Program-made: the position numbers and the translations under genes
Notes under the pieces: generated by a model
Databases searched by the model: none
Told to the model about the DNA's origin: nothing
What the model saw: the letters and a program-made list of their open reading frames with translations, nothing else
Sequence record: PQ850630.1
Direction: 5' to 3' (one strand)
Origin: Escherichia phage TanjaMuster_Bas81
DNA length: 47,623 bases
Shown here: one piece after another, positions 22,809-22,978 of the stretch
Layout of the letters: each line of letters opens with the position of its first letter
Position numbering within the stretch: the stretch's first letter is position 1

Positions 22809-22884
22809 TGGCACACCATGCAGGACTCGAACCTGCAACCAATAGCTTAGAAGGCTACTGCTCTGTCCGTTGAGCTAATGGTGT
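22809..22884 (-). tRNA. tRNA-Arg (anticodon UCU), CCA encoded
   Basis: hand-folded cloverleaf: acceptor ACACCAT/ATGGTGT, D arm GCTC-AACGGACA-GAGC, anticodon arm GTAGC-CTTCTAA-GCTAT, T arm GCAGG-TTCGAGT-CCTGC, discriminator G, 3' CCA. Confidence 0.85.
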
Positions 22885-22890
22885 TTTATT

Positions 22891-22978
22891 TGGCGGATAG
22901 TACAGGATTCGAACCTGTGAACCGTTTCCGGTTTATCGGTTAGCAACCGACTGCTTTCGGCCTCTCAGCCAACTATCC
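22891..22978 (-). tRNA. tRNA-Ser (anticodon GCU), class II with long variable arm, CCA encoded
   Basis: hand-folded: acceptor GGATAGT/ACTATCC, anticodon arm GTCGG-TTGCTAA-CCGAT, 16-nt variable arm, T arm ACAGG-TTCGAAT-CCTGT, CCA. Confidence 0.85.

What the first reader, a model, noticed from the sequence alone, without database searches (positions are those of the whole stretch)
22809..22978. Two tRNA genes (Arg-UCU and Ser-GCU) encoded antisense to the surrounding structural operon
Both fold into canonical cloverleaves with encoded CCA and sit on the minus strand between plus-strand neck and tail genes, next to a bidirectional terminator. tRNA-Arg(UCU) decodes AGA, a codon that is rare in enterobacteria, and tRNA-Ser(GCU) decodes AGC/AGU. 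Their antisense placement implies a separate promoter inside the non-coding block at 22979-23919. Phage tRNAs can compensate for codon bias or for host tRNA depletion.
Basis: seen in the sequence. Interest (0 to 1): 0.5.

Follow-up and report, generated by a model that had tools for sequence, protein, structure and literature searches.

The report
Phage tRNA pair behind tmRNA-like leader
The two tRNA genes are real but ordinary and already annotated in sister phages; the "non-coding" DNA upstream of them, however, starts with a widespread, unannotated RNA derived from the bacterial ribosome-rescue RNA (tmRNA), which keeps its own degradation-tag template and carries an antisense copy of the host tmRNA's tag region.

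Summary
Observation confirmed. tRNA-Arg(UCU) lies at 22809-22884 and tRNA-Ser(GCU) at 22891-22978, both on the minus strand with encoded CCA (ARAGORN; Rfam 69.6 and 57.5 bits, cut-off 29). The same pair at the same locus is annotated in phages Sf11 and ASO78B, so the tRNAs are known and ordinary. AGA is about 4-5 times commoner in this phage than in E. coli; AGC/AGU is not.

The 940-bp block upstream is not empty. A conserved promoter-like site (TTGACA-17-TAGATT, 23868-23840) sits directly before a 180-nt element (23829-23650, minus strand). The element has three covarying hairpins and a pseudoknot, and occurs in 841 phage records and 698 E. coli records, annotated nowhere. It is tmRNA-derived:
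- a resume-codon consensus;
- an intact SsrA-like tag (ANDDVVLMAA plus two stops) with a clear coding signature across 23 variants;
- stop codons in a helix-5-like loop.

No tRNA-like domain was found. Its conserved 5' end is instead antisense to host tmRNA nt 68-106. Four long conserved-arm hairpins with variable inserts follow, then the tRNAs and a terminator.

Inferred, untested: a leftward non-coding "translation" operon whose leader RNA pairs with host tmRNA.

The parts
22809..22884 (-). tRNA-Arg, anticodon UCU (reads AGA/AGG), CCA encoded
   Evidence: ARAGORN. Rfam 69.6 bits. 82-90% identical only to prophage-borne tRNA-Arg genes in 2466 of 5426 E. coli genomes, so not the universal argU.
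22891..22978 (-). tRNA-Ser, anticodon GCU (reads AGC/AGU), long variable arm, G73, CCA encoded
   Evidence: ARAGORN. Rfam 57.5 bits. No match in any E. coli genome.
22783..22803 (.). GC-rich hairpin flanked by A- and T-runs: terminator of the leftward RNA operon, and plausibly of the rightward neck operon
   Evidence: Terminator scan, - strand. Sequence. In phage C1 the leader runs straight into this hairpin with no tRNAs in between.
22979..23091 (-). Conserved pre-tRNA leader containing a 13-bp perfect hairpin (arms 23083-23071 and 23030-23018)
   Evidence: 97.5% identical in Sf11/ASO78B/IME207 and 83% in KFS-SE2. Inverted repeat found. Compensatory change in phage C1.
23189..23305 (-). Conserved-arm hairpin 3 (arms CACAACAGGAAAGAGCAUUG / CAGUGCUCUUUCCGUUGUGG, 79-nt insert)
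23412..23495 (-). Conserved-arm hairpin 2; its 47-nt insert is 96.6% identical in Taipeivirus and 89-96% in Kuttervirus, Gamaleyavirus and Phapecoctavirus
23585..23663 (-). Conserved-arm hairpin 1 (variant arms with compensatory changes), shared with Nonanavirus PJ16
23650..23829 (-). tmRNA-derived RNA element ('M3'), about 180 nt
   Evidence: Covariance model hit of 194 bits, the only one in the window. Covariation. Sub-threshold but consistent tmRNA-family hits.
23798..23829 (-). 5' domain of the element: antisense copy of host tmRNA nt 68-106 (UAGUUUUCGU at 23829-23820 is the exact complement of ssrA nt 97-106)
23740..23775 (-). Tag reading frame: GCA AAC GAU GAU GUU GUU CUG AUG GCG GCG UAA UAG = ANDDVVLMAA**, preceded by the resume context GAUAAAU (U-5, A-4 as in E. 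coli)
23728..23757 (-). Hairpin H1, equivalent to tmRNA helix 5 (last tag codons in the 5' strand, stop codons in the loop)
23695..23727 (-). Hairpin H2 (23727-23708) whose loop CCGA (23718-23715) pairs with UCGG (23698-23695): an H-type pseudoknot
   Evidence: All 4 pseudoknot pairs covary; 94% of cells are paired.
23678..23694 (-). Hairpin H3
   Evidence: 98% paired. G-U pairs in more than 88% of sequences fix the strand.
23840..23868 (-). Sigma-70-type promoter-like site TTGACA-17-TAGATT; predicted start near 23833, at the 5' end of the element
   Evidence: The same arrangement appears in at least 4 independent phage contexts. Retained in IME207 and C1.
23875..23883 (+). Extended -10 (TGaTATAAT) facing the major tail gene, divergent from the leftward promoter
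   Evidence: Read directly from the sequence. Not called by the scan.

Best explanation
The two tRNA genes are genuine phage tRNAs. They are the last two genes of a leftward transcription unit of about 1.05 kb that encodes no protein (about 23833 down to 22783). It is inserted between the tail-terminator gene and the major tail gene.

The unit starts at a sigma-70-type promoter that is divergent from the tail-gene promoter, and it ends at the shared hairpin terminator. Its first product is a 180-nt RNA derived from tmRNA. That RNA keeps a resume-codon region, a 10-codon SsrA-type degradation tag (ANDDVVLMAA) with two stops in a helix-5-like hairpin, and a pseudoknot. It has no tRNA-like domain. 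Its 5' end is instead an antisense copy of the host tmRNA segment that holds the host's own resume codon and first tag codons.

Four long hairpins with conserved arms and variable inserts come next, then tRNA-Ser and tRNA-Arg.

Most likely function (inferred): a translation-support or translation-hijack cassette.
- tRNA-Arg(UCU) supplies decoding of AGA, which the phage uses about 4-5 times more than its host.
- The leader RNA base-pairs with host tmRNA. This either blocks host tagging or uses the host molecule as the acceptor half of a hybrid two-piece tmRNA, so that rescued ribosomes read the phage's tag.

The modules are exchanged horizontally between unrelated phages of Enterobacterales, with the tRNAs as variable cargo.

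Sub-claim confidences: tRNAs genuine 0.97; element is tmRNA-derived 0.9; single leftward operon 0.65; element acts on host tmRNA 0.4.
For: SHOWN
- tRNA calls.
- The same pair is annotated in Sf11 and ASO78B. Other cargo at the same locus includes Met+Arg, Met+Arg+Ser, Met+Arg+Thr+Ser, Ile, or none.
- AGA is enriched: 9.7 per thousand, 17.6% of Arg codons.
- The promoter-like site lies directly upstream of the element in four independent contexts. It is retained when the element (IME207) or the tRNAs (C1) are missing.
- Wherever tRNAs are nearby, in 20 of 40 loci, they are on the element's strand.
- In HK620 the element lies between the annotated pR'/qut and the late terminator, on the transcribed strand.
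- Structure: 90% of cells are paired against 37-43% in slid controls. 17 of 30 pairs have double changes against 2-8. The pseudoknot covaries at all 4 pairs.
- tmRNA ancestry: consistent tmRNA-family hits whose alignments place the invariant core on the resume region. ARAGORN recognises the resume consensus. All of about 50 copies have an intact tag of 10 or 13 codons. Codons 1-3 and 10 vary only at the third position, and the stop is kept using TAA, TAG or TGA. The layout matches real E. coli ssrA, with a 10-codon tag, a double stop and CCUG.
- Antisense domain: it is colinear with ssrA nt 68-106 in all variants. The window scores 23 against 14.5 +/- 2.1 for shuffles (3 of 1000 reach it), and other variants score up to 34. 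It is more complementary to the host than to the element's own tag region in 29 of 29 variants.

INFERRED
- Co-transcription of the whole unit.
- Pairing with host tmRNA in vivo.
- Translation of the phage tag.
Against: - There is no expression data. The promoter is a consensus match only, and the scan found no more promoter-like sites than in shuffled sequence.
- No tRNA-like domain (acceptor stem with G3-U70, T-arm, ACCA) exists in the element or anywhere in the window. No long-range P2 partner was found. The element cannot perform trans-translation by itself.
- Use of host tmRNA as an acceptor piece has no precedent, and the host's own tag template would remain in cis.
- All tmRNA-family scores are below the gathering thresholds (27 vs 47 bits).
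- Felixounavirus copies show weak duplex energy with E. coli ssrA (z -0.2), although their best alignment still falls on nt 81-106.
- In HK620-type prophages the element sits upstream of the late terminator, so it would also be made in lysogens. No role has been tested there.
- Codon usage does not explain tRNA-Ser.
- The E. coli codon frequencies were recalled from memory, and the phage ORF set was chosen greedily.
Confidence: 0.55

Rival explanations
1. Plain reading: two ordinary codon-supplementing phage tRNAs with their own promoter. The upstream block is a recombination-scarred spacer with no function of its own, and its widely shared segments are just hitch-hiking flanks of horizontally transferred tRNA cassettes.
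For: - The tRNAs are typical, and AGA is over-used.
- The block is mosaic, and its segments recur next to tRNA clusters in many phage families.
- The middle of the block is deleted in Sf11 without loss of the tRNAs.
Against: - Hitch-hiking does not explain the compensatory base-pair changes and the covarying pseudoknot.
- It does not explain an intact tag frame with third-position-only variation in 23 variants.
- It does not explain the persistence of the element in phage C1 and in HK620-type prophages, which have no tRNAs.
- No credible promoter lies between 22979 and 23091 (sequence read).
Confidence: 0.15
2. The tRNAs are counter-defence genes. They replace host tRNA-Arg and tRNA-Ser that are cleaved or depleted by host anticodon nucleases. 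The tmRNA-like RNA raises ribosome-rescue capacity in the same emergency.
For: - Both tRNAs belong to phage lineages far from the host isoacceptors. tRNA-Ser matches nothing in 5426 E. coli genomes, as expected if they must escape host-specific nucleases.
- AGC/AGU usage gives no codon-bias reason for tRNA-Ser.
- The tRNAs are co-located with a ribosome-rescue-related RNA.
Against: - No nuclease specific for tRNA-Ser(GCU) or tRNA-Arg(UCU) was identified here.
- The anticodon loop of the phage tRNA-Arg (CUUCUAA) is the same as I recall for E. coli argU, so there is no evident escape mutation.
- This explanation is not exclusive of codon compensation.
Confidence: 0.15
3. The element is the coding piece of a complete, autonomous two-piece phage tmRNA. 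Its acceptor piece is too divergent to recognise, for example one of the conserved-arm hairpins. Some of those carry a T-arm and some are followed by ACCA.
For: - The best Rfam matches are to the two-piece families (tmRNA_permuted, beta_tmRNA).
- Some hairpin inserts end in GGUUCGAAUCC next to the 3' arm.
- Several 3' arms are followed by ACCA, including window 23412.
- In some prophage copies CACAAC precedes the element, so CACAAC/GUUGUG could close it as P1 does.
Against: - CACAAC/GUUGUG has no G3-U70, so AlaRS identity is missing.
- Most 3' arms end in GUGA or GUAA rather than ACCA.
- The window's own hairpins have no sense-strand T-arm.
- With a promoter directly upstream there is no 5' CACAAC.
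- ARAGORN's relaxed tRNA-domain picks are arbitrary.
- This model leaves the antisense match to host ssrA unexplained.
Confidence: 0.1
4. The element is a pure antisense inhibitor (sponge) of host tmRNA. The tag frame is an evolutionary leftover that is never translated.
For: - The conserved 5'-terminal seed is complementary to the single-stranded tag region of host tmRNA.
- There is no tRNA-like domain.
- From memory, prophage-encoded anti-sRNAs are known in E. coli O157.
Against: A leftover would not keep an open frame of 10 or 13 codons. It would not keep AN[DE]...A, or a stop codon realised by three different triplets with variation confined to synonymous third positions, across copies only about 72% identical.
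Confidence: 0.15
5. The block encodes a protein: ORF 23478-23834 (+), 118 aa, annotated as a hypothetical protein in PJ16, Bas77-79 and BUCT_XGG_PSM_3377.
For: An open frame of 118 codons, with the same start retained in PJ16.
Against: - No Pfam or PHROG match, and an odd Cys/His/Arg-rich composition.
- Homologous copies differ by indels of 1-2 nt.
- The conserved features are RNA helices with G-U pairs on the opposite strand.
Confidence: 0.02

Closest known systems
tRNA-Arg(TCT)/tRNA-Ser(GCT) pair of Shigella phage Sf11 (Cedarrivervirus, NC_054636) and Escherichia phage ASO78B (MZ726796)
   Same: Same two tRNAs, in the same order, on the same strand and at the same locus between the tail-terminator and major-tail genes. 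95-97% identical across the tRNAs and the adjacent leader.
   Different: The window's upstream block is 940 bp rather than about 540 bp. It carries three extra modules (23207-23656) that Sf11 lacks.
Bacterial tmRNA (SsrA): one-piece E. coli type and two-piece beta/alpha-proteobacterial types (Rfam RF00023, RF01850, RF04321)
   Same: - Resume-codon context with U-5 and A-4.
- A 10-codon tag beginning AND and ending in Ala, with a double stop in the loop of a hairpin equivalent to helix 5.
- A pseudoknot immediately downstream.

   Different: - No tRNA-like domain, no P2 helix, no supported PK1, and only one pseudoknot.
- Scores are below every gathering threshold.
- The 5' domain is antisense to host tmRNA, a feature no tmRNA is known to have.
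Phage-encoded tmRNAs (mycobacteriophage cluster C, Bacillus phage G, marine phage Melnitz) and the tRNA-like-domain-only molecule of mycobacteriophage DS6A
   Same: Phage-borne derivatives of ssrA. DS6A shows that a partial tmRNA can be carried by a phage and is proposed to interfere with host trans-translation (PMC4131195). Melnitz carries a two-piece ssrA just downstream of an early promoter (PMC9004378).
   Different: Those are complete tmRNAs detectable by ARAGORN, or in DS6A the opposite half. The 2014 survey of 543 RefSeq phages found none outside mycobacteriophages (PMC4131195). This element is the mRNA-like half only, occurs in phages of Enterobacterales, and is missed by ARAGORN at default settings.
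Stable non-tRNA RNAs inside phage tRNA clusters (T4 species 1 and 2 RNAs); recalled from memory, not tested
   Same: Small non-tRNA RNAs encoded within, and presumably processed from, a phage tRNA transcription unit.
   Different: No sequence comparison was made. The T4 RNAs have no known tmRNA relationship.
Bacterial Y RNAs (YrlA) bound by Ro60/Rsr
   Same: A long terminal stem plus a tRNA-like module, encoded in some phages (PMC4201824). The conserved-arm hairpins with T-arm-bearing inserts have a similar outline, and Felixounavirus VpaE1 encodes a DUF2828/DUF7788 protein next to its tRNA array.
   Different: - The GNCGAA(N)G Ro60-binding motif is absent from the arms.
- Rfam YrlA does not hit them.
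- No TROVE protein was found among the eight largest ORFs (400 aa or more) and two neighbouring genes of the window that were scanned.
- The VpaE1 protein has no PDB relative by sequence.

Membership tests
tRNA (Rfam RF00005) | Cloverleaf covariance score at or above the curated threshold, full-length match | tested here: met
   69.6 and 57.5 bits against a gathering score of 29, model 1-71 of 71. ARAGORN calls both.
tRNA (Rfam RF00005) | Isoacceptor identity features: Arg needs A20, C35 and discriminator G/A73; Ser needs a long variable arm, G73 and G2:C71 (established identity rules) | tested here: met
   Read from the sequences. Arg has the D-loop ...CGGAC... (G18 G19 A20), anticodon UCU and G73. 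Ser has a 5-bp variable-arm stem, G73 and G2:C71. This is an inference from sequence only.
tRNA (Rfam RF00005) | Expressed, processed and aminoacylated | not testable with these tools
   Needs Northern blots, tRNA-seq or acylation assays.
tmRNA (SsrA) | Resume-codon region followed by a short tag frame that ends in hydrophobic/Ala residues and a stop | tested here: met
   Window: GAUAAAU|GCA...GCG GCG UAA UAG = ANDDVVLMAA**. Intact in about 50 copies, with 17 distinct peptides. Third-position-only variation at conserved codons. Aligned to the tmRNA models. ARAGORN recognises the resume consensus.
tmRNA (SsrA) | Helix 5 holding the end of the tag, with the stop codon in or near the loop | tested here: met
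   H1, 23757-23728. All 4 outer pairs and 3 of 5 inner pairs have double changes. Same layout as E. coli ssrA.
tmRNA (SsrA) | Pseudoknots flanking the tag region (PK1 upstream, PK2-4 downstream) | tested here: inconclusive
   One covarying H-type pseudoknot lies downstream. No supported structure exists upstream of the resume codon, where the predicted 5' hairpin is weak.
tmRNA (SsrA) | tRNA-like domain: acceptor stem with G3-U70, T-arm, 3'-ACCA, closed by helix P2 | tested here: not met
   - ARAGORN at default settings finds no tmRNA.
- Its relaxed calls pair the tag with arbitrary sequences.
- No T-arm + 7 nt + ACCA exists in the window apart from the two tRNAs.
- No covarying P2 partner was found.
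- No other tmRNA-family hit exists in the window.
tmRNA (SsrA) | Score at or above the Rfam gathering threshold for any tmRNA family | tested here: not met
   Best is 27 bits against 47 (RF04321). RF01850 gives 13-18 against 84.
Trans-acting antisense RNA against host tmRNA (proposed, no established family) | Conserved, accessible complementarity to the target beyond chance, and better than to the RNA's own homologous region | tested here: met
   Colinear blocks against ssrA nt 68-106 in all variants. 3 of 1000 shuffles reach the window's score. Host exceeds self in 29 of 29 variants. Duplex z of -3.4 to -5.7 in 6 of 7 variants.
Trans-acting antisense RNA against host tmRNA (proposed, no established family) | Physical pairing and an effect on trans-translation in vivo | not testable with these tools
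   Needs EMSA, an RNA-RNA interactome method, compensatory mutants and tag proteomics.
Bacterial Y RNA (YrlA) | GNCGAA(N)G Ro60-binding motif near the 5' end, a tRNA-like D/T module and an adjacent Ro60 (TROVE) gene | tested here: not met
   The motif is absent from the arms (sequences, compared with PMC4201824). There is no YrlA hit on the hairpins. No TROVE domain was found among the large window ORFs scanned.
Protein-coding gene (ORF 23478-23834 +) | Homologues keep the frame; recognisable family or plausible composition | tested here: not met
   No Pfam or PHROG hit. Indels are not multiples of 3.
Sigma-70 promoter / intrinsic terminator | Consensus hexamers with 16-18 bp spacing; GC hairpin followed by a U-run | tested here: met
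   TTGACA-17-TAGATT (10 of 12) and the terminator at 22803-22783. Both are conserved in relatives. These are consensus matches only; activity was not tested.

The most novel reading that the evidence does not exclude
Hundreds of phages of Enterobacterales (Ackermannviridae, Felixounavirus, N4-like, P1-like, lambdoid and this siphovirus group) carry a 'tag-swapping' RNA. It is a tmRNA half-molecule that docks by antisense pairing onto the host's own tmRNA, exactly over the host's resume codon. This masks the host tag template and offers a phage-encoded one. Ribosome rescue during infection would then append a phage-chosen peptide (AND..LMAA or LAVA) instead of ANDENYALAA. In effect this would be a hybrid two-piece tmRNA assembled from a host RNA and a viral RNA.
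Probability: 0.2. Interest if true: 0.9.

Novelty: new variant of a known kind. Interest (0 to 1): 0.6.

Why it matters
The tRNAs themselves add little. They are another instance of a known, already-annotated phage tRNA pair, with AGA supplementation as the obvious rationale.

The context matters more.
- It shows that in this phage group the tRNAs are interchangeable cargo in a conserved non-coding operon.
- It exposes an RNA family present in more than 800 sequenced phages and about 12% of complete E. coli genomes. No annotation pipeline, Rfam model or paper in the searched library recognises it.
- That RNA is a tmRNA derivative that keeps a translatable-looking degradation tag but lacks the part needed to enter the ribosome, and it is antisense to the host's tmRNA.

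If the RNA acts on host trans-translation, it would be a new way for viruses to manipulate ribosome rescue and protein quality control. It would also bear on the old observation that some phages depend on host tmRNA. In addition it would correct spurious 'hypothetical protein' annotations and explain large unannotated gaps in well-studied phages such as Vi01, Felix O1 relatives, P1-like plasmids and HK620.

Tried and rejected
- **Protein coding in the block.** ORFs were translated and scanned against Pfam and PHROGs. Nothing was found, and the indels break the frame.
- **Known RNA families.** Rfam at gathering and permissive thresholds on the window and 11 loci gave only tRNAs, int-alpA elsewhere, and sub-threshold tmRNA hits. 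No ribozyme family appeared in these permissive scans; hammerhead and pistol layouts were considered by eye only.
- **P22 sncRNA 'P22E'** in the Q-holin gap (PMC13397905). P22 lacks the element and the modules, and P22E is unrelated.
- **Y RNA / Ro60 idea** for the conserved-arm hairpins. Not supported.
- **put-like processive antiterminator.** Rejected by reasoning: in HK620-type prophages the element lies upstream of the Q-dependent late terminator, so unconditional antitermination would be lethal.
- **boxA (NusB/E) reading of the 3' arm UGCUCUUU.** Rejected, because that part of the arm covaries and is not sequence-constant.
- **A nearby tRNA promoter in 22979-23091.** No acceptable hexamers (sequence).
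- **tRNA-like domain search.** Relaxed ARAGORN, a T-arm+ACCA pattern search, a P2 partner search and a whole-window permissive Rfam scan. None found.
- **Capture of host ssrA by imprecise excision.** Unlikely. Only the mid-gene tag region is alignable and is diverged, and most carriers are virulent phages.
- **Distribution in bacterial species representatives.** Only 2 hits, Pseudocitrobacter and Pantoea.
- **First duplex computation** timed out and was repeated in reduced form.
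Full report
**1. The observation**

ARAGORN finds exactly two tRNA genes in the window: tRNA-Arg (anticodon tct) at 22809-22884 and tRNA-Ser (anticodon gct) at 22891-22978, both on the minus strand. The Rfam tRNA model matches both over its full length at 69.6 and 57.5 bits, against a gathering score of 29. Both genes encode the 3' CCA.

They lie between a + strand gene for a tail-terminator protein (22406-22780, Pfam PF23842, E 1e-40) and the + strand major tail gene (23920-24636, named from relatives). A GC hairpin at 22783-22803 is scored as a terminator on the minus strand. 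On the plus strand it is followed by TTTTAATTT.

**2. The tRNAs are known and ordinary**

The window is a siphovirus of Enterobacterales related to Cedarrivervirus, Skatevirus, Deseoctovirus and Shuimuvirus; 425 phage records match at DNA level.

Shigella phage Sf11 and Escherichia phage ASO78B annotate the same Arg(TCT)+Ser(GCT) pair at the same place, at 95-97% identity. IME207 has the pair too, unannotated and overlapped by a 'hypothetical protein'.

Other relatives carry different cargo at this locus:
- Met+Arg (KFS-SE2);
- Met+Arg+Ser (BUCT541);
- Met+Arg+Thr+Ser (an IMG/VR contig);
- a single tRNA-Ile;
- no tRNA at all (phage C1).

Neither tRNA is a recent host capture. tRNA-Arg resembles only prophage-borne tRNA-Arg genes, found in 2466 of 5426 E. 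coli genomes at 82-90% identity. tRNA-Ser matches nothing in any E. coli genome.

In a greedy set of 61 ORFs, AGA is used at 9.7 per thousand (17.6% of Arg codons), AGG at 6.4 and AUA at 12.6. My recollection of E. coli K-12 is about 2.1, 1.2 and 4.3. AGC+AGU make up 37% of Ser codons, which is host-like. Codon supplementation is therefore a fair rationale for tRNA-Arg and a weak one for tRNA-Ser.

**3. The 'non-coding block' (22979-23919)**

It encodes no credible protein. Its ORFs have no Pfam or PHROG match. The longest (23478-23834) has an implausible composition, and homologous copies differ by 1-2-nt indels.

It is a mosaic. Segments of 85-200 bp recur at 85-97% identity in unrelated phage families: Kuttervirus, Taipeivirus, Phapecoctavirus, Gamaleyavirus, Nonanavirus and Jedunavirus. 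They almost always lie under no annotation, inside large gaps next to tRNA clusters, and with the tRNAs in the same relative orientation as here.

**4. A structured RNA at the head of the block**

The segment 23663-23831 matches 841 phage records and 698 E. coli records. The E. coli places are 150 chromosomal ones in lambdoid prophages, between Q and the holin gene, and 554 on P1-like phage-plasmids, directly upstream of tRNA-Asn/Thr. RefSeq annotates nothing there.

In HK620 the segment lies between the annotated pR'/qut and the late terminator. The transcribed strand there equals the window's minus strand. In Felixounavirus VpaE1 it fills the gap between tRNA-Arg(TCT) and tRNA-Ile. In all 20 loci that have tRNAs nearby, these are co-oriented with it.

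An alignment of 36 distinct copies supports three hairpins plus a pseudoknot:
- 90.1% of cells are paired, against 36-43% when partners are slid;
- 17 of 30 pairs have changes on both sides, against 2-8;
- 110 such cells, against 5-17;
- all four pseudoknot pairs covary.

G-U pairs present in more than 88% of sequences fix the strand. A covariance model built from this alignment hits the window once, at 23829-23650 (-), with 194 bits.

**5. The element is tmRNA-derived**

Four divergent copies and the window all give sub-threshold hits to tmRNA families on the sense strand. The alignments place the element's invariant core AUAAAUGCAAACGA on the tmRNA resume-codon region.

Read from that GCA, the window encodes ANDDVVLMAA followed by UAA UAG. 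All of about 50 copies have an intact tag of 10 or 13 codons, with 17 distinct peptides of the form AN[DE]xx[FYVM]L[AM][AV]A.

Across 23 distinct 10-codon versions, codons 1-3 and 10 vary only at the third position. The stop is always present but is TAA, TAG or TGA. That is a coding signature, not drift.

The last tag codons and the stops sit in hairpin H1 exactly as in tmRNA helix 5. The real E. coli ssrA, fetched from MG1655, reads ANDENYALAA** and aligns with the element only over this region. ARAGORN itself labels 'gataaatgcaaacgatga' as its resume consensus once thresholds are relaxed.

**6. What is missing**

No tRNA-like domain could be found.
- ARAGORN at default settings calls no tmRNA.
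- Its relaxed 'tRNA domains' are arbitrary; one is a terminator hairpin.
- No T-arm followed by 7 nt and ACCA exists in the window apart from the two tRNAs.
- No covarying P2 partner exists.
- No other tmRNA-family hit occurs anywhere in the 47.6 kb.

The element therefore fails membership of the tmRNA family on a defining feature, although its ancestry is clear.

**7. An antisense 5' domain**

The sequence-conserved, structure-poor 5' domain (23829-23798) is colinear with the reverse complement of host ssrA nt 68-106:
- UAGUUUUCGU pairs exactly with nt 97-106 (codons for D-E-N-Y);
- AGCGAC pairs with nt 86-90, spanning the frame-setting nucleotides and the first bases of the resume codon;
- UUUGCGGACUUUUUA pairs with nt 68-82 (3' strand of PK1).

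Every variant maps to ssrA 65-106. Shuffles reach the window's score in 3 of 1000 trials, and other variants score far higher. Duplex energies have z of -3.4 to -5.7 in six of seven variants, the Felix type being the exception. In 29 of 29 variants the domain is more complementary to host ssrA than to the element's own tag region (24.4 vs 12.0).

In at least four independent contexts a strong sigma-70-type promoter places the predicted start just upstream of this seed. The element's own resume context keeps U-5 and A-4.

**8. The rest of the unit**

The element is nearly always followed by a long hairpin with conserved arms: CACAAC-A-GG-U-AAGAGCAUU and AGUGCUCUU-U-CC-GUUGUG. The arms have a conserved bulge and a U-U mismatch, a covarying upper stem, and a 31-97-nt insert that differs completely between phages. 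The arms are strand-specific: 52 and 43 in the sense orientation, against 3 and 4 antisense.

The window has four such hairpins (coordinates). Their function is unexplained. RNase III processing stalks, tRNA-like minihelices and recombination joints are all possible.

Phage C1 keeps promoter, element, hairpins and leader, and runs straight into the terminator with no tRNAs. IME207 keeps promoter, hairpins and tRNAs but has another 140 nt in place of the element. The conserved feature of the locus is therefore a leftward non-coding operon with exchangeable modules.

**9. Mechanism**

Shown:
- the genes, the structure, the tag frame and the complementarity;
- the conserved promoter-like and terminator-like sites;
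- the co-orientation with tRNAs.

Inferred:
- one transcript runs from about 23833 to 22783;
- it is processed into the element, the hairpin cassettes and two tRNAs;
- tRNA-Arg supports AGA decoding;
- the element pairs with host tmRNA.

Whether pairing only blocks host tagging, or recruits host tmRNA as the acceptor half so that the phage tag is translated, cannot be decided here. The coding signature favours translation. The lack of precedent argues for caution.

**10. Novelty**

- The tRNAs are already known.
- The element is absent from Rfam 15 and from RefSeq annotation.
- No paper in the searchable library prints its core sequences or describes a tmRNA-like RNA in these phages.
- The tmRNA Website survey found phage ssrA only in mycobacteriophages and Bacillus phage G, plus a tRNA-like-domain-only molecule in DS6A (PMC4131195).
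- A 2022 survey found ARAGORN-detectable tmRNAs in 402 of 18,146 phages (PMC9004378); this element is not ARAGORN-detectable.

I rate the whole as a new variant of a known kind. Interest is low for the tRNAs and substantial for the leader RNA.

Noticed in passing
window 458-521 (+): Rfam int-alpA RNA (RF02996) above its gathering score (42.6 vs 35.8 bits), near the left end of the window and upstream of the terminase genes.
   Followed up: no
window 23585-23663, 23412-23495, 23189-23305, 23018-23083 (-): Four long hairpins with conserved, strand-specific arms (CACAAC-A-GG-U-AAGAGCAUU / AGUGCUCUU-U-CC-GUUGUG) and hypervariable inserts. The same arms occur in many unrelated phage families and in P1-like plasmids. 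Some inserts end in a tRNA T-arm, and some 3' arms are followed by ACCA. Function unknown.
   Followed up: partly
window 23478-23834 (+); L005 2503-2940 (PJ16_048); Bas77-79; BUCT_XGG_PSM_3377: An ORF antisense to the tmRNA-like element is annotated as a 'hypothetical protein' in several GenBank records. It is very probably spurious.
   Followed up: yes
L144 (Salmonella phage IME207, NC_031924) 1799-1968 (-): Unannotated tRNA-Arg(TCT) and tRNA-Ser(GCT). The first overlaps the annotated hypothetical CDS gp60 (1604-1804).
   Followed up: partly
L145 (Escherichia phage HC6) 1613-1689 (-): A tRNA-Ile with anticodon AAT at the same locus. A34 is unusual in a bacterial-type tRNA-Ile, which raises the question of inosine formation or a non-standard decoder.
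   Followed up: no
L140 2403-3818 (Felixounavirus VpaE1 ORF045): A 471-aa 'RNA-binding protein' with DUF2828 + DUF7788 domains is encoded directly beside the tRNA array that contains the tmRNA-like element. It has no PDB relative by sequence.
   Followed up: partly
window 23875-23883 (+) and 23840-23868 (-): Back-to-back divergent promoter-like sites. An extended -10 (TGaTATAAT) faces the major tail gene and TTGACA-17-TAGATT faces the RNA operon. This stretch is more conserved among relatives (about 96%) than the neighbouring neck genes (about 89%).
   Followed up: partly
window 23920-24636 (+): The major tail protein gene contains no AGA, AGG or AUA codon at all, although the genome as a whole is rich in them. 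The most highly expressed structural gene thus avoids the very codons the phage tRNAs (here and in relatives) decode.
   Followed up: no
L008 (Taipeivirus UPM 2146) 277-3613; L014 (Vi01) about 470-2870; L011 (EC1-UPM) 1537-3500: Unannotated gaps of 2-3.3 kb in well-known large phages consist of the same kinds of RNA modules: the tmRNA-like element, conserved-arm hairpins and T-arm-bearing units.
   Followed up: partly
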